DNA from: a virus
Virus genome (UHGV): UHGV-0305805
Length of the DNA: 14,115 nucleotides
Direction: 5' to 3' (one strand)
The notes beneath the pieces are model-generated. The model was not told the origin of the DNA, ran no database searches, and worked only from the letters and a program-made list of their open reading frames with translations. The position numbers were made by a program, and so were the translations under genes. Of this stretch, positions 5,550 to 12,008 are shown piece after piece; positions within the stretch are counted from its first letter, which is position 1; every line of letters begins with the position of its first letter.

Positions 5550-5597
5550 ATTTATTTTTACCCCCTCGTTTAAAAAGTTTTGAGTTGTGCCTCCCCT

Positions 5598-5824
5598 TGT
5601 CTACCTTATCTACCTTAGTGGCCCTCATACCAGTAATGGCGCGGCTTTCAGCGGGGTAGAGTGCTTTTATCCACTATCTACCCCGTGTCTACCTCCCTGT
5701 CTGATTCAGGTAAAATCAGGTAGAGAGGGTAGATAGTGGGTAGACAGTAAAAAAAGGTTATCTACCTAACTTAATGCACTGAATTAAATGTATTTTTCTT
5801 TACTCAGGTAGACAGGGTAGACAG
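5598..5824. repeat. Iteron array, putative origin of replication (GGTAGACAG family, both orientations, with an AT-rich tract)
   Basis: At least 11 copies of GGTAGA[C/G/T]AG or its complement at 5598-5614, 5653-5661, 5674-5693, 5719-5747 (three in tandem), 5758-5766 and 5807-5824 (two in tandem). AT-rich stretch at 5770-5805. Immediately downstream of the primase gene. Confidence 0.75.
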
Positions 5825-5837
5825 CAATTACAAAAAA

Positions 5838-7592
5838 TTATAAAAACGCGTCGCACTCGTCTGTTGTTATTGCGTTAGTCTGCGTTACTCCCTTAACTTT
5901 CCGCGTAATATATTCATGTCCGTAAACTTTCGCGGCTGGCTTCATAGCCTTGCCAAAGTCATTTACGTTTAGCGGTTTGCTCCTGCCTGCGTACGCCATA
6001 AACGCCAGATAGACGCGGTAAAGGCTGTTTCTGGTCGTGTACTTCACTGAATCGCCACCGCCGCCCATCATCAGGCCGCGTGCTTCCTCCAGAAAATTCA
6101 GGAACTGGCAAAACTCAATAACCGGATCCGTCTGTTGCTTTATTGCCAGAGCTTCATCACCGTCACGCTGTTCCAGTAGTAAAGCCCGTGCCTTCTCAGG
6201 GTCGGTAAAGTTCGCCAGCAATCGGCGGATAATGACAGGGATTTCAGCCGCGATCTTTTCCGGTAGCTCCCTGTCTTTTTCGGCCTCACTGACGATATTG
6301 TCGAAACGGAAAATCACGCGACGACGTGCCACACCTCCGGCCCGTTCGGTGAATATCATCGGGTTATTGTTGGTCGCCAGCACCACCGCCCTGATTACCG
6401 CCGTGAAACGCTTTTCGTATTTCGGGTTAATTTCCACGGGGTCACCGCCCGTGATTTTCTTGATGCCCGTTCCTTCGCCTGTATATTTCGGCTGGTCAGC
6501 CAGGACGATAAGACGACTCCCGACAACCTGCGCACGTCCACCAGCATCATCAAGCGATGTCATTTCAGCGCTTACCGTGTTCTGTTTCCCTGCCAGAAGG
6601 CTGGCTATGTGTGTGAATGTACTTTTACCGCTCCCGCCGTCTCCGGTGGCCTCAATAAACATCTGCCAGTCGTACCGGTTCGCCATAATCATGTACAGCG
6701 CGGCACATATACGCATCATCTTGCGCGGGTCTTTTCCGGCTGCGTGCTCAAGCCATTTATGAAAGTTTGGCGCGTTATCGCGGATGTTCTCCCCTGGTGC
6801 TGGTGGCGTGTACTCAATGCCGTTGTGCGTGGTGATCCAGTTCTCCGGCGTGTGCGGGGAAAATTCCCCCGTTTTCAGGTCAAGCGCACCATTGGCGAAC
6901 GGCAACAAATCGCCGGACGGCTCGCCCATTGGTTCGGCAATAACTTTTAACGCTTCCACGGCGTTATTGATTACGCGCTTGCTGAAAGTGGCCCTGTGCT
7001 CTGAATAGATCGCCACCATTTCGCGGCTAAGTTCCATTGTGCTGACCGGACACCATACCCCGCCGCGCCATACGTGAACGATTTCACTTTCAGGATGTAC
7101 GCAAACGCCATCAAAGCGATCGGCAAGCAGCTGCGCGCGCTCACTGTCCGCCATCTGCGAAAGTTGCGCCTTTTGCTTTACCGGAAGCTCAATGACCAGA
7201 CCATCAGAAAGATTCTGGCGCTCACGGGCCAGATATTCGCGCCAGTTCTCCACCTTCTGACCGTGCATACCATCAGGGTAAAAATTTGCATCCTGTACGC
7301 CTGCCGCCGCCAGCTTCTGACCAATCGCCTTTATCATTACTGGCGCAAGATATCCGGCCCTGAATATGCGCACGGATTTTCTGCCTTCCGGCACAATTTG
7401 CAGCTTATCCAGTTCGGATAACTGCTGCTCCCCAAGCCACACAGGAGGCTCATTATCTCCGGCCATACGCGCGTCATGTTCCTGCCATTGTTTTGCGTGT
7501 GACCAGGCATCACTACCCGCAAAAATAATGACTTCTGTTTCTTTGTGTTTTATGCCGCGTGACTGCTGTTTTACGTTCGGTGCCAGTTTCAT
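5838..7592 (-). CDS. Primase / replicative helicase, P4-alpha-like
   Basis: 584 aa; Walker A GDGGSGKST and Walker B-like LIVLADQP in the C-terminal half, with a primase-like N-terminal half. Start overlaps the upstream ORF stop (ATGA). Confidence 0.85.
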   Translation of the reverse strand: MKLAPNVKQQSRGIKHKETEVIIFAGSDAWSHAKQWQEHDARMAGDNEPPVWLGEQQLSELDKLQIVPEGRKSVRIFRAGYLAPVMIKAIGQKLAAAGVQDANFYPDGMHGQKVENWREYLARERQNLSDGLVIELPVKQKAQLSQMADSERAQLLADRFDGVCVHPESEIVHVWRGGVWCPVSTMELSREMVAIYSEHRATFSKRVINNAVEALKVIAEPMGEPSGDLLPFANGALDLKTGEFSPHTPENWITTHNGIEYTPPAPGENIRDNAPNFHKWLEHAAGKDPRKMMRICAALYMIMANRYDWQMFIEATGDGGSGKSTFTHIASLLAGKQNTVSAEMTSLDDAGGRAQVVGSRLIVLADQPKYTGEGTGIKKITGGDPVEINPKYEKRFTAVIRAVVLATNNNPMIFTERAGGVARRRVIFRFDNIVSEAEKDRELPEKIAAEIPVIIRRLLANFTDPEKARALLLEQRDGDEALAIKQQTDPVIEFCQFLNFLEEARGLMMGGGGDSVKYTTRNSLYRVYLAFMAYAGRSKPLNVNDFGKAMKPAAKVYGHEYITRKVKGVTQTNAITTDECDAFL

Positions 7593-8928: not shown

Positions 8929-9148
8929 GTACCCCTCCGCATTTTTTTTCGTTAGAAATAAGCGTTCTTCTTTCCTGTTCATCGCTCAGGAATACGCAGA
9001 CCTCACCGCTAAGGCGTTTAAGTAAGCCGATGATTGCCCCTGATTCGCTGTCGGTCATCATGCCAGGGTAATCCTCTGCCAGTGCGCAAATAACTTCGAT
9101 TTGGTGGGCGCGTTCTGCTGCCTGTTGTAGTGTGATTTCCTGGCTCAT
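8918..9148 (-). CDS. Hypothetical protein (76 aa)
   Basis: ATG at 9146-9148 preceded by GGGGGTAGG; ATGA overlap with the upstream ORF. Confidence 0.55.
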   Translation of the reverse strand: MSQEITLQQAAERAHQIEVICALAEDYPGMMTDSESGAIIGLLKRLSGEVCVFLSDEQERRTLISNEKKCGGVHVQ

Positions 9149-9345
9149 AAGCCTACCCCCTGACGAATACGGGCAGCAAATACCATCACGCAGCCAGCCG
9201 GAGATTGCTGGCGTGCTTCCTGTTCGCTGGTGGCCTCAATGGTAATCACGCGCGGTTGTGCCGTGCTCAGGGCGATAAAACGCCAGATGTATTTATTCAG
9301 GTTGTGCGAGTCCCGCCCTTGCGGGTGTGTGGTATGATTTCTCAT
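9145..9345 (-). CDS. Hypothetical protein (66 aa), first gene of the leftward operon
   Basis: ATG at 9343-9345 preceded by GAGGTAG. It is the C-terminal part of a 340-aa ORF in the track that I regard as spurious upstream of this start. Confidence 0.5.
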   Translation of the reverse strand: MRNHTTHPQGRDSHNLNKYIWRFIALSTAQPRVITIEATSEQEARQQSPAGCVMVFAARIRQGVGL

Positions 9346-9441
9346 AGCTACCTCGATACTTTCGCTATCGTTGGTGGTTAGAAGCCCGGTTAGTGTTAGC
9401 GCACTGCCGGGTTTCGTCGTTTCTGCACCTTGCGCCAACAA

Positions 9442-9495
9442 GGTGTTGAACACCAATTTAAACCCAGGTGTTAAACACGTCAAGTGTTGAACACT
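9442..9495. promoter_or_regulatory. Three palindromic operator-like sites, GTGTT-N-AACAC, between divergent promoters
   Basis: GGTGTTGAACACC at 9442-9454, GTGTTAAACAC at 9468-9478, AGTGTTGAACACT at 9483-9495; centres 25 and 16 bp apart. The third overlaps a -35-like TTGAAC for the rightward gene. Confidence 0.6.
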
Positions 9496-9544
9496 TATTT
9501 TTTTTCCTGCATACTGCATTTGTTTTTTATGAGGGGTACACCAC

Positions 9545-9724
9545 ATGGCGACAAAAGCGGTAAACGCAAAATCACAAACCGTTGCGGCAAGGGTTCCGCA
9601 TGAAGTTATGAACAATGTTGAGGCGGTAAAAATGCCTGGCGAAAGTACGGGGCAATTTGTTACTGCGGCATTAAAACGAGAAGTTGAATATCGCCAGCGG
9701 CGCAAGGCCAAAGAACCAGAGTAA
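9545..9724 (+). CDS. Ribbon-helix-helix (Arc/CopG-like) DNA-binding protein, candidate repressor
   Basis: 59 aa, ATG preceded by GAGGGG at 8-nt spacing. Sequence fits a beta-strand (TVAARVPHEV) followed by two helices; basic C-terminus. Below the 60-aa cutoff of the ORF track. Confidence 0.55.
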   Translation: MATKAVNAKSQTVAARVPHEVMNNVEAVKMPGESTGQFVTAALKREVEYRQRRKAKEPE

Positions 9725-9781
9725 TCACCATCAGCGCCGTGGTGTAAGGTATTACGGCGCATTGCTATGCAGGACAACACA

Positions 9782-9955
9782 ATGACCGATAAAGAATTGA
9801 CCAAAACATTATCACCGGCACGGAAAAGACGGCGCAGAAAGATAGAGCATGAATCAGAAAGATTCGCGCCATGTGCTTTTGCCCTTGAGCAATTCCTTAA
9901 AGAGTACAGGGAAAAGCGCTCATTGCAGGTATGGCAACGAACTGAACCAGACTGA
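9782..9955 (+). CDS. Small basic protein (57 aa), possibly co-transcribed with the ribbon-helix-helix gene
   Basis: ATG at 9782 with AGGA about 9 nt upstream; arginine/lysine-rich (ARKRRRRKIEHE). Coding status uncertain. Confidence 0.3.
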   Translation: MTDKELTKTLSPARKRRRRKIEHESERFAPCAFALEQFLKEYREKRSLQVWQRTEPD

Positions 9956-10050
9956 TTGCATTGCCCACCAGCCTGATAACGGCTATCATCCCCGTGCTTA
10001 TGTTTGGGATCACACACACAAACGGCGCAGCGGGTTATCTGTTCAGAAAG

Positions 10051-10078
10051 GCGGCTCCATTTCGGGGCCGCTTTTTTT
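10051..10078 (+). terminator. Intrinsic terminator ending the rightward transcript
   Basis: GCGGCTCC-attc-GGGGCCGC followed by seven T. Confidence 0.65.
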
Positions 10079-10224
10079 ATACCTGAAAAACCCCAATTTT
10101 GTTGTTTTTCAGTTTCACCAGGGCGAACGAATCCCCGCCCACGTTCTGGCGTATATTCAATCTTCATGGTTATAGCTCTGTGTTCAGATGATTGATGTGT
10201 GGCGGCTGCGTGCCGCCAGCGTGA

Positions 10225-10413
10225 TTAATGAACTGCCTTGCAGCTATCCTTCCAGGCCAGAACCTCGGATAAAGACCAGCCAACGGAACGACCGCCAAGT
10301 TTACGACGTGATGGGAATTGTCCGGCCTTTTCCAGGCGGTAGCGACACGTACGGCTAAGGCCGGTTAGTTTTTCGCATTCTTTTTCACGTATAAACCGAT
10401 CAGTGCTTAACAC
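10225..10413 (-). CDS. alpA: AlpA-family phage regulatory protein (helix-turn-helix activator)
   Basis: Contains EKLTGLSRTCRYRLEKAGQFPSRRKLGGRSVGWSLSEVLAW, matching the AlpA helix-turn-helix signature. Likely start is GTG at 10411-10413 preceded by AGGGGGG; the ORF track extends it to 10494 with a TTG start. Confidence 0.8.
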   Translation of the reverse strand: MLSTDRFIREKECEKLTGLSRTCRYRLEKAGQFPSRRKLGGRSVGWSLSEVLAWKDSCKAVH

Positions 10414-10686
10414 TATTGCCCCCCTTTCGTTTCTTAAAGAGTCATCAGGTGTCTTATTGTGTCGTATTGTTCCCGCTAGAGTGATGAATGGCAAATACTG
10501 AGGATGTATGATTTACAGAAAATGAAACAGTAAGAATAAAATCTTTTAAATTCATGTTAATACAAAGGCATAAAATATTGTTCCATGCCTTTTTTCTCGC
10601 TCTTTAAAGAGTGATTCGCTAGTGTACAAAAAACCAGTAACGCATTAAAAATCAGCCACTTATAAATCCGTACGCTTTTTCGCCTC

Positions 10687-10730
10687 TTGTTCGTAGTTGT
10701 TCCACATTGTTGCTCATTGTTGCACGTTGT
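10687..10730. promoter_or_regulatory. Phased TTGTT[C/G] hexamers (x4, exactly 10-bp spacing) ending in the complement of CAACGTGCAACAA
   Basis: TTGTTC at 10687 and 10697, TTGTTG at 10707 and 10717; the 13-mer at 10717-10729. Located between the integrase stop and alpA, in opposite orientation to the other three clusters. Confidence 0.4.
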
Positions 10731-10778
10731 ATCTGTTCGCATATCCAGTATGCGCATACTGAAAAAACACGAAAAAAA

Positions 10779-12008
10779 TTATTTTCTTCTGGCTACGGGT
10801 AGCGTGGTTACGTTTTCATGTGTTCCCGCCAGTATCCCTAACCGCTCCGTCCACATATCCAGCGCATTGCGTTTCGCATCCAGATAACGGGAATGATTAT
10901 AAACTCGCTGCATTCCTGGCATCTGGTGGCCTGTAAGCTGCTCCACGACATGCGGATCAACGCCTAAATCGTTCAGCATGGTTGTAAAGGTGCGCCGGAT
11001 GTCATGCAGTGACCAGTGAGGGTGATTAAGCCTCCTGTACGCTAATCTTCCATACTGCGATACGCTGGCCTCCTGTTTCACTTCCCCCAGCAATAAGCCC
11101 GTGTGCCTGTTCTGCTCCACCAGCTGCGTGACGAACGGCAGGATCGCTTCCGGTATGGGCCGGAATATTGCGACCTTCGTTTTGCTGTGCTCCTTCGGAA
11201 CGGTCCATAGCATTTCCGTAAAATCCCACTCCCCGATCTCCGATAACCTCAGTTCTACCGTTCTGGCTCCGAAGACAATCAGGAGGCGGATTAACGCGAC
11301 GTAGTAAGGGGAGAATATTTTTTTGTCCAGTGCCTGCAATAATTCGCCAAGTTCTTTGTTACTTAAGACACGTTCGCTTATATCCGGTTTTTTCCCAACG
11401 TCCGCAACGTTCAGATCGTCCAGAACGTTGCTGATTGCATAGCGCCGCCTACGGCAGAACTTAAGCGCCTGTTTGCACGCCTGTAGCACGAATCCGGCAG
11501 TAACAGGCGTTCGCTTTGCCACCTGGTCAAAACAGGCCAGCCAGTGCCGTAGCTCGCATTTATCCAGCGGCATAGCACCAATCTGCTGTATTACGTGATT
11601 ATTAAGTCGCCTTTTCAGGGCGATATAATCCACGCGGTTTTCCTTTACGTAATACTCAAGCCAGTAGGTGAGCGCATCGCCAACCGTTACGGGCTTTAAC
11701 GCTTCCTGTACGGTGTAATTCATCTCATGACGTGGATTTTTCCCCTCAGCCAGCCATGTGCGACACTGTGCGGCTTTTTCCCTGGCTGCTTTCAGGCTCA
11801 GATCAGGATAACTTCCCAGCTTAATGCGTTCGGGTCGTGTCTCCCTTCCCGTTCCGGCCCTGTATGTGAAATACCAGGTCAATTTCCCTGATGTTAAATA
11901 TTTCACGCTCAGGTTTCCGCCATCACTATAAAACGTGTTTTTCTCCGCTGGCTTACCATGAAGTTTCCTTAGCAAGGTATCGCTCAGTTTGTTCATTGCT
12001 CTGCTCAC
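10779..12008 (-). CDS. int: Tyrosine recombinase / integrase, P4-like
   Basis: 409 aa with catalytic-region motifs ARTVELR, HDIRRTF and a C-terminal YNHSRYLD tyrosine context. Start could be GTG at 12008 or ATG at 11996. Confidence 0.9.
   Translation of the reverse strand: MSRAMNKLSDTLLRKLHGKPAEKNTFYSDGGNLSVKYLTSGKLTWYFTYRAGTGRETRPERIKLGSYPDLSLKAAREKAAQCRTWLAEGKNPRHEMNYTVQEALKPVTVGDALTYWLEYYVKENRVDYIALKRRLNNHVIQQIGAMPLDKCELRHWLACFDQVAKRTPVTAGFVLQACKQALKFCRRRRYAISNVLDDLNVADVGKKPDISERVLSNKELGELLQALDKKIFSPYYVALIRLLIVFGARTVELRLSEIGEWDFTEMLWTVPKEHSKTKVAIFRPIPEAILPFVTQLVEQNRHTGLLLGEVKQEASVSQYGRLAYRRLNHPHWSLHDIRRTFTTMLNDLGVDPHVVEQLTGHQMPGMQRVYNHSRYLDAKRNALDMWTERLGILAGTHENVTTLPVARRK

What the first reader, a model, noticed from the sequence alone, without database searches (positions are those of the whole stretch)
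9346..9544. Three-operator palindromic switch between a divergent ribbon-helix-helix gene and the leftward replication/accessory operon
Three GTGTT-N-AACAC palindromes (9442-9495) lie between the ribbon-helix-helix gene start (9545, plus) and the first leftward gene (9345, minus); one overlaps a -35-like hexamer. This is the layout of a repressor-controlled bidirectional switch. As I recall, satellites of this type in Gram-negative hosts are thought to rely mainly on AlpA activation, so a dedicated repressor with tandem operators would be a separate control layer.
Basis: partly seen in the sequence, partly recalled or inferred. Interest (0 to 1): 0.6.

Follow-up and report, generated by a model that had tools for sequence, protein, structure and literature searches.

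The report
Repressor switch in a phage satellite
The 200 bases between two divergent genes of an E. coli phage satellite hold three binding sites for a small repressor-like protein, two back-to-back promoters and an antisense RNA, which would give Gram-negative satellites the repressor layer not yet identified in them.

Summary
Three exact GTGTT-N-AACAC palindromes lie at 9443-9453, 9468-9478 and 9484-9494, against 0.41 expected by chance for the whole window.

The window is a capsid-forming PICI of E. coli. The same module is present in the prototype PICI EcCICFT073.

The sites cover a conserved leftward promoter (icd-like gene through primase) and the -35 of the rightward promoter of a 59-aa YlcI/YnfO-family gene. 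Its model best matches ribbon-helix-helix proteins.

- In 31 distinct close relatives, the 30 half-site bases never vary, the central base does, and 38% of the other intergenic bases vary.
- Across 15 specificity classes the architecture is kept. The inner operator bases change together with the protein's N-terminal strand, while AlpA and Icd stay identical.

The repressor-switch reading is therefore supported, by comparison only; no binding was tested.

- A SymR-like antisense RNA (9346 to about 9424, + strand) covers the icd-like ribosome site. It has strong covariation and strand-specific G-U pairs.
- A stop-free minus-strand frame runs from the alpA stop codon to the icd-like ATG. It is conserved across classes and genera and shows no coding periodicity where that could be tested. 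I read it as a translated read-through corridor, which is inference.

Verdict: a new variant of a known kind.

The parts
9442..9454 (.). Operator O1, GGTGTTGAACACC. It covers the predicted start point of the leftward promoter PL.
   Evidence: It sits at a fixed position (-102 relative to the ylcI ATG) in all classes.
9467..9478 (.). Operator O2, GGTGTTAAACAC. It lies in the PL spacer and abuts the PL -35.
   Evidence: Its position of -77 is conserved in all 15 classes.
9483..9495 (.). Operator O3, AGTGTTGAACACT. It overlaps the PR -35 and abuts the PL -35. In most other classes the third site lies instead just after the PR -10.
9455..9483 (-). Leftward promoter PL: -35 TTGACG 9483-9478, 17-nt spacer, -10 TAAATT 9460-9455.
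   Evidence: The -35 TTGAC and a TAnnAT-type -10 are conserved across classes whose operator sequences differ.
9487..9515 (+). Rightward promoter PR of the ylcI-family gene: -35 TTGAAC 9487-9492, 17-nt spacer, -10 CATACT 9510-9515.
   Evidence: Read directly. It scores 8 of 12 and so falls below the scan threshold. The -10 (T/C)ATACT is conserved in most classes and shows 0 of 6 variable positions in close relatives.
9545..9724 (+). 59-aa YlcI/YnfO-family protein, predicted ribbon-helix-helix repressor. The strand at residues 11-17 is class-specific.
9346..9424 (+). Predicted cis-antisense small RNA resembling SymR. Hairpin 1 is 9346-9379, terminator hairpin 2 is 9381-9415, followed by a U-rich tail. 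It is complementary to the 5' leader and Shine-Dalgarno of the icd-like mRNA.
9330..9338 (+). Extended -10 promoter TGgTATGAT of the antisense RNA, inside the first codons of the icd-like gene.
   Evidence: Read. The TAnnnT pattern is kept even where the overlapping codons change the amino acid (H to Y or N). The layout matches symR, whose -10 lies in the symE ORF (PMC1891008).
9145..9345 (-). 66-aa Icd-like protein, first gene of the leftward operon that runs to the primase (5838-7592).
   Evidence: NF033153, 69.9 bits against a cut-off of 25. Operon layout. The 66-aa form is the one annotated in CFT073.
9346..10224 (-). Stop-free frame ('corridor'), in phase with the icd-like ATG. It is open for 293 codons, from the alpA stop codon through the antisense of orf62 and ylcI, both promoters and the antisense-RNA target.
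10225..10413 (-). alpA (AlpA-family activator). Its stop codon is the first in-frame stop bounding the corridor.
   Evidence: PF05930, E 5e-17.
9767..9955 (+). 62-aa ORF downstream of ylcI in the same + frame (phrog_21027). Probably co-transcribed from PR.
10051..10080 (+). Intrinsic terminator (GCGGCTCCATTTCGGGGCCGC followed by T7) that ends the rightward ylcI-orf62 unit.
   Evidence: read from the sequence.

Best explanation
The 199-bp spacer is the control hub of a Gram-negative phage-inducible chromosomal island. I propose four steps.

1. Repressor and operators. The 59-aa YlcI/YnfO-family protein is a ribbon-helix-helix repressor. It binds three GGTG-N5-CACC operators. O1 and O2 blanket the start point and spacer of the leftward promoter PL, which drives the icd-like gene, small ORFs and the primase. 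O3 sits on the -35 of the protein's own promoter PR. Occupancy therefore shuts the replication operon and autoregulates the repressor.

2. Antisense RNA. An RNA of about 75-80 nt is made from an extended -10 promoter inside the first icd-like codons. It pairs with the whole leader and ribosome-binding site of the PL transcript. This blocks icd-like translation and, through polarity, the downstream genes. The logic is that of c4/icd/ant in phage P1 and SymR/symE.

3. Induction. The helper phage turns on alpA. I propose that alpA transcripts read through leftward. A stop-free frame from the alpA stop codon to the icd-like ATG lets ribosomes follow the polymerase across the terminator hairpins, the operators and the antisense-RNA target. 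These transcripts would then escape Rho, the antisense RNA and the repressor, and would also run antisense across ylcI.

4. What is shown and what is inferred. Shown here: the sites, promoter-like elements, conservation, protein-operator co-variation, RNA structure covariation and strand, and the stop-free frame. Inferred: binding, the sign of regulation, expression of the RNA, and the function of the corridor.
For: Sites and promoters.

Identity of the element: it is a cf-PICI inserted in tqsA, with int, alpA, primase, capsid, portal, protease and terminase genes. The same module is in the prototype EcCICFT073.

Conservation: in 31 distinct relatives chosen by protein identity alone, half-sites vary at 0 of 30 positions, the central base at 2 of 3, and other intergenic positions at 26 of 69.

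Co-variation across 15 classes:
- O1, O2, the PL -35 and the PR -10 keep fixed positions. The outer GGTG/CACC bases are conserved. The inner 5 bases are class-specific and repeated 2-3 times within each class.
- Residues 12 and 14 of the strand predict the operator. T and A go with GTGTTNAACAC in four diverged proteins, including Kosakonia and Pectobacterium. K and E go with GTGTCAGCCAC in E. coli, Proteus and Xenorhabdus.
- These residues align with Arc Q9 and N11 (weak).
- AlpA is 100% identical in loci of five different operator classes, and Icd is at least 94% identical across classes. Only the YlcI N-terminus travels with the operators.

Antisense RNA:
- 96% of cells are paired, 13 of 18 pairs show compensatory changes, and 0 of 500 shuffles match.
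- There are 42 G-U pairs on the + strand and 0 A-C cells that would pair as G-U on the minus strand, with a T-rich tail on the + strand only.
- Fold energy is -35.1 kcal/mol, z = -4.45.
- The Rfam SymR hit scores 33 bits, E 5e-4. In reverse, my model's best hit in the 2 kb around K-12 symE is symR itself.

Corridor:
- The in-phase frame has a mean of 3.1 stops per 900 nt, against 17-19 in the other two minus-strand frames.
- In the operator segment, 30 of 34 distinct variants are open in frame 0, against 0 and 1 in the other frames.
- The frame begins at or overlaps the alpA stop codon.
- It is also present in EcCICFT073, Xenorhabdus and Proteus.
- There is no codon periodicity at 9958-10167.

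Literature: alpA is required, it autoactivates, and an ORF3 reporter downstream of alpA depends on AlpA (PMC6092414).
Against: - No binding, footprint, transcript or reporter data exist for any part of the module.
- Operators and the ylcI 5' half are physically adjacent, so part of the co-variation could reflect co-inheritance within one mosaic block.
- PR is a poor consensus match (8 of 12).
- The SymR hit is far below Rfam's gathering score (33 against 61).
- The antisense RNA's promoter lies in coding sequence, so its conservation is partly confounded.
- The corridor could encode a real long Icd-like isoform. Database ORFs of 220-256 aa exist.
- K-12 YlcI sits beside cos, with no such operators, so the family need not always be a repressor.
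Confidence: 0.72

Rival explanations
1. The stretch is coding, not regulatory. It would be part of a long Icd-like protein of 133-340 aa read on the minus strand, as NCBI's pipeline annotates, and the palindromes would be incidental.
For: The minus-strand frame is open from 10224 to 9145. PGAP calls a 133-aa Icd-like CDS plus an Icd-like pseudogene here. Public databases hold ORFs of 220-256 aa over this region.
Against: - The Icd-like profile matches only the last 48 residues.
- CFT073 is annotated with the 66-aa form.
- The ATG and its GAGGT ribosome site are conserved, while the upstream sequence is replaced by at least 12 unrelated variants.
- The aligned 'proteins' share no conserved residues beyond DNA-level features.
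- There are no Pfam hits and no codon periodicity at 9958-10167.
- Promoter hexamers, operators and the + strand RNA structure are the conserved features.
- In the L049 family the long open frame is out of phase with icd and ends 16-28 nt before the ATG.
Confidence: 0.06
2. The palindromes are operators, but for another protein: AlpA, a helper-phage protein or a host factor. The small ORF would then have a different job.
For: AlpA is the only regulator shown experimentally in these islands (PMC6092414). GTGTTNAACAC pairs occur in many unrelated genomes. A one-mismatch copy overlaps the alpA start.
Against: - Identical AlpA proteins are combined with five different operator classes.
- The only class-specific coding sequence within the swapped block is the YlcI N-terminus.
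- The same residues at positions 12 and 14 recur with the same operator in otherwise diverged proteins from other genera.
- The alpA-start copy is present in only 7 of 45 close loci and has no counterpart in other classes.
Confidence: 0.08
3. The core of the module is a type I toxin-antitoxin-like addiction or abortive-infection pair. Icd-like would be a division-inhibiting toxin and the SymR-like RNA its antitoxin. The ribbon-helix-helix protein would merely tune transcription, and control of satellite replication would be secondary.
For: The Icd-like family is named for a cell-division inhibitor. The antisense RNA has the SymR layout. The icd plus RNA unit is conserved as one block across satellites that differ upstream. 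The hairpin-1 loop is hypervariable, as in plasmid antisense systems.
Against: - The icd-like gene heads the operon leading to the primase with overlapping or abutting ORFs. Control of its translation should therefore propagate to replication genes, as in P1 icd-ant.
- Toxicity of this protein is untested.
- This rival is largely compatible with the best explanation rather than exclusive of it.
Confidence: 0.12
4. The palindromes are replication-origin or packaging-site repeats rather than transcriptional operators.
For: Repeated short motifs in an intergenic region of a mobile element. K-12 YlcI lies beside a cos site.
Against: A separate iteron field sits at 5593-5830, immediately after the primase gene, which is the usual PICI ori position. 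It holds about ten copies or more of GGTAGACAG / TGTCTACCT in both orientations. The palindromes keep exact register with promoter hexamers in all classes.
Confidence: 0.02

Closest known systems
Phage P22 immI region (Mnt, Arc, Pant/Pmnt, sar RNA). Comparison drawn from my own knowledge of the literature.
   Same: A small ribbon-helix-helix repressor is transcribed divergently from the operon it represses, with operators overlapping back-to-back promoters. A short cis-antisense RNA starts inside the downstream gene and covers its ribosome-binding site. The YlcI strand aligns in register with Arc's base-contacting strand (weak).
   Different: No significant sequence similarity to Arc or Mnt was found. 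There are three 11-13-bp GGTG-N5-CACC sites rather than one 21-bp operator. The controlled operon is icd-like through primase of a satellite, not an antirepressor. The module comes in at least 15 specificity classes.
Phage P1 immI (c4 RNA, icd, ant). Comparison drawn from my own knowledge.
   Same: An Icd-family leader gene whose translation is gated by an antisense RNA at its ribosome site, with expected polarity on the genes behind it. Icd-like family membership was tested.
   Different: P1 c4 is encoded upstream in the same orientation, processed, and acts in trans. Here the RNA is a true cis-antisense transcript. No match to the Rfam C4 family was listed in the local scan of 9100-10800 at E up to 5.
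SymR/SymE of E. coli K-12 (Kawano et al. 2007, PMC1891008)
   Same: An antisense RNA of about 77 nt with two hairpins. Its -10 lies inside the target ORF and its 5' end lies at the target's start codon. There is weak reciprocal similarity, including the loop GUGUU(A/G)GCGCAC and the linker UUAG.
   Different: The score is below Rfam's gathering threshold (33 against 61 bits). The target is an Icd-like protein, not the AbrB-fold SymE. There is no LexA control. The RNA sits in a satellite, not in the hsd region.
Satellite phage P4 left operon (PLL, vis, PLE, kil/eta, cI RNA, alpha). Comparison drawn from my own knowledge, including Forti et al. 1999 J Bacteriol, which I did not re-read.
   Same: An AlpA/Vis-type gene lies upstream of an internal early promoter that drives a primase operon. 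There is RNA-based immunity in the leader. The idea that translating the leader from the upstream promoter's transcript overrides immunity is shared. Some relatives of this module, such as the Xenorhabdus locus, carry a P4 alpha-type primase.
   Different: P4 has no protein repressor at PLE, and its cI RNA is a processed trans-acting C4-type RNA. Here there is a ribbon-helix-helix repressor with operators plus a cis-antisense RNA, and the translated stretch is about 300 codons long.
Stl/Rpr master repressors of Gram-positive PICIs (SaPIs)
   Same: A divergently transcribed repressor sits next to int and controls the replication operon of a phage satellite (background in PMC6092414).
   Different: Stl proteins are larger helix-turn-helix repressors lifted by helper-phage proteins. 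Nothing is known about how, or whether, YlcI is inactivated. Gram-negative PICIs additionally need AlpA.

Membership tests
YlcI/YnfO family (NCBIfam NF041551) | Match to the 42-position N-terminal profile above the curated cut-off. | tested here: met
   59.7 bits against a cut-off of 30, E 2e-16, covering residues 9-50. Also phrog_949, E 9e-22.
Ribbon-helix-helix (CopG/Arc/MetJ) superfamily | Strand-helix-helix fold of about 45 residues. | tested here: inconclusive
Ribbon-helix-helix (CopG/Arc/MetJ) superfamily | Sequence match to a curated RHH model or to a solved RHH protein. | tested here: not met
   No Pfam RHH hit at E up to 0.1. No PDB sequence hit. hhalign against Arc gives only 5% probability, although in the expected register.
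Ribbon-helix-helix (CopG/Arc/MetJ) superfamily | Dimer that inserts its paired strands into the major groove of repeated operator sites. | not testable with these tools
   Supported only indirectly, by co-variation of strand residues 11-15 with the inner operator bases.
Rfam SymR (RF01809) | Score at or above the gathering threshold. | tested here: not met
   33.3 bits against 61. No hit in gathering mode.
Rfam SymR (RF01809) | Cis-antisense RNA with its promoter inside the target ORF, its 5' end at the start codon, two hairpins and a terminator. | tested here: met
   Extended -10 at 9330-9338 and predicted start near 9346. Structure and strand are supported by covariation. The symR layout was checked in K-12 and in PMC1891008. 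Transcription itself is not shown.
Icd-like proteins (NCBIfam NF033153) | Profile match above the cut-off. | tested here: met
   69.9 bits against 25, covering residues 19-62 of the 66-aa ORF.
Gram-negative PICI / capsid-forming PICI | int, alpA and primase in one orientation, plus (for cf-PICI) capsid, protease, portal, connector, HNH and terminase genes, with no tail or lysis genes. | tested here: met
   Annotation of a 100%-identical locus in E. coli PCN033. alpA matches PF05930. The module is shared with EcCICFT073. The element definition comes from PMC6092414 and bioRxiv 2022.09.08.507074.
Phage P1/P4 C4-type antisense RNA (Rfam C4) | Match to the covariance model. | tested here: not met
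   Not among the matches at gathering score for the whole window, nor at E up to 5 for 9100-10800.
Type I toxin-antitoxin system | Toxic protein whose translation is blocked by an unstable or abundant antisense RNA. | not testable with these tools
   The antisense layout is present. Toxicity of the Icd-like protein and the RNA's half-life are unknown.

The most novel reading that the evidence does not exclude
The ylcI-operator-antisense RNA-icd block would be the missing immunity system of Gram-negative phage satellites (PICIs, cf-PICIs and some P4-like elements). It would comprise three parts. First, a ribbon-helix-helix master repressor existing in at least 15 natural specificity classes. 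Second, a SymR-related antisense RNA with class-variable loops. Third, a stop-free stretch of about 300 codons with no protein-level conservation, whose only role is to be translated. That translation would let alpA-driven read-through transcripts cross convergent genes, terminators, bound repressor and the antisense target, and so flip the switch.
Probability: 0.35. Interest if true: 0.8.

Novelty: new variant of a known kind. Interest (0 to 1): 0.68.

Why it matters
The PICI literature states that Gram-positive islands have a master repressor. [quoted passage not shown]

This module is present in the two experimentally used prototypes' lineage: in EcCICFT073 itself and in this cf-PICI. About 500 of 5,426 complete E. 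coli genomes carry it nearly whole. It also occurs in Salmonella, Klebsiella, Proteus, Xenorhabdus, Pectobacterium, Kosakonia and Edwardsiella.

It offers four things:
- A concrete, testable candidate for the missing repressor.
- A natural panel of matched protein-operator specificities for a minimal DNA-binding fold.
- A likely relative of the SymR antisense RNA in mobile elements.
- A possible case of an open reading frame kept for the act of translation rather than for its product.

It also shows that current automatic annotation of these loci is inconsistent, with 133-aa 'Icd-like' proteins and pseudogenes in one genome and the 66-aa form in another.

Tried and rejected
- Pfam gave nothing for the 59-aa protein, the Icd-like ORF or the long ORF. 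A PDB sequence search with the family profile gave only noise.
- Rfam at gathering thresholds found nothing in the whole window.
- My RNA model with default filters missed K-12 symR. Only the unfiltered search found it, weakly.
- A one-mismatch operator over the alpA start codon (10403-10413) looked like a link to alpA. It is in only 7 of 45 close loci and has no counterpart in other classes, so I dropped it.
- A CxxC...CxxC pattern in the long ORF suggested a zinc ribbon. The cysteines are not conserved in homologues, so I rejected it.
- An ungapped substitution count over the corridor had too few sequences. I replaced it with an aligned count, which is still a small sample for 9958-10167.
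- K-12 ylcI was checked for the same operator layout and has none; it lies next to cos.
- The genome-wide scan for palindrome pairs showed the motif is common in unrelated taxa. The motif alone is therefore not diagnostic, and no helper-phage target could be picked out.
- Literature searches found no functional study of YlcI/YnfO/DUF3950 and no description of a repressor in cf-PICIs.
- The P4 paper on kil/eta translation could not be retrieved and is cited from memory.
Full report
**1. What the window is**

The region 9100-9800 is 100% identical to chromosomal loci in many E. coli genomes. In strain PCN033 the annotated neighbourhood is an island inserted in tqsA. In window coordinates and orientation it reads:
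- integrase, 10779-12008, minus strand
- an AlpA-type regulator, 10225-10413, minus strand (PF05930, E 5e-17)
- a YlcI/YnfO-family gene, 9545-9724, plus strand
- an Icd-like gene ending at 9145, minus strand
- several small ORFs, then a primase at 5838-7592, minus strand
- SSB and PerC
- major capsid, protease, portal, connectors, HNH and terminase

This is the gene set of a capsid-forming phage-inducible chromosomal island, or cf-PICI (bioRxiv 2022.09.08.507074).

The prototype Gram-negative PICI, EcCICFT073, carries the same int, alpA, orf, ylcI and icd-like through primase arrangement.

**2. The observation**

Three exact GTGTTNAACAC palindromes lie at 9443-9453, 9468-9478 and 9484-9494. 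With one mismatch allowed, the whole window has four matches against 0.41 expected, and 0 of 200 shuffles reach four.

Promoter elements around them:
- A leftward promoter, PL, has -35 TTGACG at 9483-9478, a 17-nt spacer and -10 TAAATT at 9460-9455.
- Site O2 fills the PL spacer, O1 covers the predicted start point, and O3 abuts the -35.
- O3 also overlaps TTGAAC (9487-9492), which lies 17 nt upstream of CATACT (9510-9515). That pair is a plausible rightward promoter, PR, for the small gene. I read this from the sequence. At 8 of 12 matches it falls below the scan's threshold.

**3. Are the sites functional?**

I took loci from IMG/VR by similarity to the 59-aa protein alone. All 34 distinct upstream regions of close homologues keep the three palindromes, and only the central base varies.

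In a MAFFT alignment of 31 distinct sequences:

| Positions | Variable |
|---|---|
| Operator half-sites | 0 of 30 |
| Central base | 2 of 3 |
| PR -10 | 0 of 6 |
| Other intergenic positions | 26 of 69 |

**4. Does the adjacent protein bind them?**

Diverged homologues (55-68% identity) keep the architecture, but the repeated motif differs.

I pooled loci found through the YlcI protein and through the Icd-like protein. This gave 15 classes, defined by the N-terminal strand K/R-S-x5-R-[VIFA]-[PA]-[HL].

What all classes share:
- A first site lies around -100 to -112 in most classes (-102 in the window), and a second site lies at -77, abutting the PL -35 (TTGAC).
- The PR -10 is (T/C)ATACT.
- In most classes a third site starts right after that -10.
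- The outer GGTG/CACC bases and the promoter hexamers are conserved.
- The inner five bases are class-specific.

The window class is unusual. Its third site is at -61, on the PR -35, instead of after the -10.

Residues 12 and 14 track the operator:

| Residues 12, 14 | Operator | Where seen |
|---|---|---|
| T, A | GTGTTNAACAC | four otherwise diverged proteins, including Pectobacterium and Kosakonia |
| K, E | GTGTCAGCCAC | E. coli, Proteus and Xenorhabdus |
| K, D | GTGTCAGACAC | |
| A, K | GTGTGGCCCAC | the EcCICFT073 class |
| S, T | GTGTAAGAC-type | two classes |

A profile alignment puts T12, A14 and R16 opposite Arc Q9, N11 and R13. This is weak (E 0.008, probability 5%). From my own knowledge, those are Arc's base-contacting residues.

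Linkage is the main caveat. However, AlpA is 100% identical in loci of five different classes (L060, L072/L074, L083, L102, L122). The Icd-like protein is at least 94% identical across classes. The C-terminal tail of YlcI (EIKRRQRRKAKE) is shared between classes. The class-specific block therefore contains only the operators and the YlcI N-terminal half.

As independent association, pairs of GGTGTTNAACACC also lie beside unrelated small ribbon-helix-helix-like ORFs in environmental viral contigs.

**5. What the protein is**

It matches NF041551, the YlcI/YnfO family, at 59.7 bits against a cut-off of 30. It has no Pfam hit. Homologues occur across Enterobacterales.

An AlphaFold model built from 32 homologues has pLDDT 80. 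Two confident helices span residues 19-28 and 35-56. The N-terminal 18 residues are poorly defined, as expected for a strand that pairs only in a dimer.

I found no functional study of the family.

**6. A second regulator: an antisense RNA**

An Rfam scan in E-value mode hit SymR on the plus strand at 9346-9418, with 33 bits, E 5e-4 and a gathering score of 61. The match starts immediately after the complement of the icd-like start codon.

Structure:
- The stretch folds into two hairpins at -35.1 kcal/mol, z = -4.45.
- In 25 diverse homologues, 96% of cells pair and 13 of 18 pairs show compensatory changes. No shuffle out of 500, and no slid register, comes close.

Strand:
- There are 42 G-U cells on the plus strand and 0 A-C cells that would pair as G-U on the minus strand.
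- A T-rich tail follows hairpin 2 on the plus strand only.
- The selected structure is therefore a plus-strand RNA ending in a terminator, antisense to the leader and the GAGGT ribosome site of the icd-like mRNA.

Promoter and comparison with SymR:
- An extended -10 (TGgTATGAT, 9330-9338) sits 7 nt upstream, inside the first icd-like codons.
- Its TAnnnT pattern persists where the overlapping codons change the amino acid.
- SymR has this layout. Its -10 lies in the symE ORF, and the RNA starts at the symE start codon.
- A covariance model built from my alignment has its best hit in the 2 kb around K-12 symE at symR itself, on the right strand, though weakly (12 bits).

I therefore call it SymR-like, not a member of the family.

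The icd plus RNA unit is one conserved block joined to at least 12 different upstream operator segments. The hairpin-1 loop is variable at 7 of 7 positions among close relatives. That would fit a specificity loop.

**7. An unexpected feature: a stop-free frame**

NCBI's pipeline extends the Icd-like CDS across the whole spacer in PCN033. The mechanical ORF is 340 codons long. I checked whether this is chance.

Numbers:
- In 57 distinct loci, the minus-strand frame in phase with the icd-like ATG has a mean of 3.1 stops in the 900 nt upstream, and most loci have 0-2. The other two minus frames have 17-19.
- Segment by segment, frame 0 is open in 42 of 42 distinct variants of the RNA segment. It is open in 30 of 34 variants of the operator segment, against 0 and 1 for the other frames. 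It is open in 42 of 48 variants of the ylcI-antisense segment and in 41 of 54 variants of the next 320 nt. The bias disappears further upstream.

Where it starts and how widely it occurs:
- In the window the first in-frame stop is alpA's own stop codon. In other loci the open frame begins at, or overlaps, the end of alpA.
- The same holds in EcCICFT073 (367 codons), Xenorhabdus (166 codons) and Proteus (243 codons), and in more distant icd families.
- In the L049 family the open frame is out of phase with icd and ends 16-28 nt before the ATG.

Is it a protein?
- The translated sequences share no conserved residues beyond stretches fixed at the DNA level.
- Nothing matches Pfam.
- The part not overlapped by plus-strand genes (9958-10167) shows no codon periodicity, with 8, 9 and 10 variable sites at the three codon positions. 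This is a small sample.
- The ylcI overlap shows strong periodicity (5, 3 and 21), but third positions coincide on both strands there, so that count does not discriminate.

My reading is that selection acts on openness, not on the product. Transcripts from the alpA promoter would read leftward, and ribosomes would keep up with the polymerase. This would suppress Rho and the hairpins at 10201-10217 and 10051-10071, and would clear the antisense-RNA target.

This is inference. It fits the published finding that a reporter fused to ORF3 downstream of alpA depends on AlpA. It also resembles phage P4, where, from memory, translating kil/eta from the upstream PLL transcript overrides cI-RNA immunity.

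**8. Rivals**

- Coding-only reading. It is contradicted by the conserved ATG and ribosome site, the mosaic replacement of the upstream sequence, and the conservation of regulatory rather than protein features.
- AlpA or another factor as the binder. It is contradicted by identical AlpA proteins paired with different operator classes.
- An origin or packaging role. It is unlikely because an iteron field lies at 5593-5830, next to the primase.
- A toxin-antitoxin reading of icd and the RNA. It is compatible with the main model.

**9. Novelty and limits**

The kind of system is classical: a small repressor with operators over divergent promoters, plus an antisense RNA. P22 immI, P1 immI, SymR/SymE and P4 each share part of it.

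What is new:
- its presence in Gram-negative PICIs, where the field reports only the AlpA activator and an open question about a repressor
- the assignment of a role to the uncharacterised YlcI/YnfO family
- the natural series of specificity classes
- the SymR-like RNA
- the stop-free corridor

Nothing here shows binding, transcription or phenotype. Fold evidence is weak, and the corridor's function is a hypothesis.

Noticed in passing
window 5593-5830: Dense field of GGTAGACAG / TGTCTACCT iterons, about ten copies or more in both orientations, immediately downstream of the primase gene. This is probably the island's replication origin.
   Followed up: partly
window 9346-10224 (minus strand): Frame in phase with the icd-like ATG is stop-free for 293 codons back to the alpA stop codon. 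The same holds across specificity classes, in EcCICFT073, and in Xenorhabdus and Proteus, without protein-level conservation.
   Followed up: yes
window 10051-10080 and 10201-10217: A strong plus-strand intrinsic terminator (GCGGCTCCATTTCGGGGCCGC followed by T7) follows orf62. A GC-rich hairpin lies right after the alpA stop. Both lie inside the minus-strand stop-free frame.
   Followed up: no
window 10403-10413: A one-mismatch operator copy, GTGCTTAACAC, overlaps the GTG start of alpA. It is present in only 7 of 45 close loci and absent from other classes, so it is probably chance.
   Followed up: yes
window 9767-9955: A 62-aa plus-strand ORF (phrog_21027) lies just after ylcI in the same frame. 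It is conserved in EcCICFT073 and shows codon-position periodicity. Its function is unknown; it could be a partner of the repressor.
   Followed up: partly
window 9359-9365: The loop of hairpin 1 of the antisense RNA varies at all 7 positions among otherwise close relatives. It is possibly a specificity (kissing) loop that keeps co-resident satellites from cross-regulating.
   Followed up: partly
L001 10046-11068 versus L215 8853-9053: Automatic annotation is inconsistent. PCN033 has a 133-aa 'Icd-like' CDS overlapping ylcI plus an 'Icd-like' pseudogene, whereas CFT073 has the 66-aa form.
   Followed up: yes
L087, L094, L101, L105, L109, L118, L130 (upstream of the icd-like gene): A second, unrelated small ribbon-helix-helix-like protein family (sequence ...FHMRIVPELKEQF...) occupies the place of YlcI. 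It has its own palindromes, for example GGTGTACACC.
   Followed up: no
L219 5252-5834 (E. coli K-12 DLP12): K-12 YlcI lies next to the cos/nohD region of a lambdoid prophage, with no GTG-N5-CAC repeats upstream. The family has at least one other genomic context.
   Followed up: partly
L221, L227, L228, L235, L248, L249, L273 and others (Prevotella, Hoylesella, Segatella): Pairs of GTGTTNAACAC with a 57-nt span recur many times per genome in Bacteroidales. This looks like a separate repeated element.
   Followed up: no
H74, H75 (E. coli Rb-23, 1218KP): A 48-nt, 98%-identical copy of the antisense RNA terminator region (window 9375-9422) occurs where nothing is annotated.
   Followed up: no
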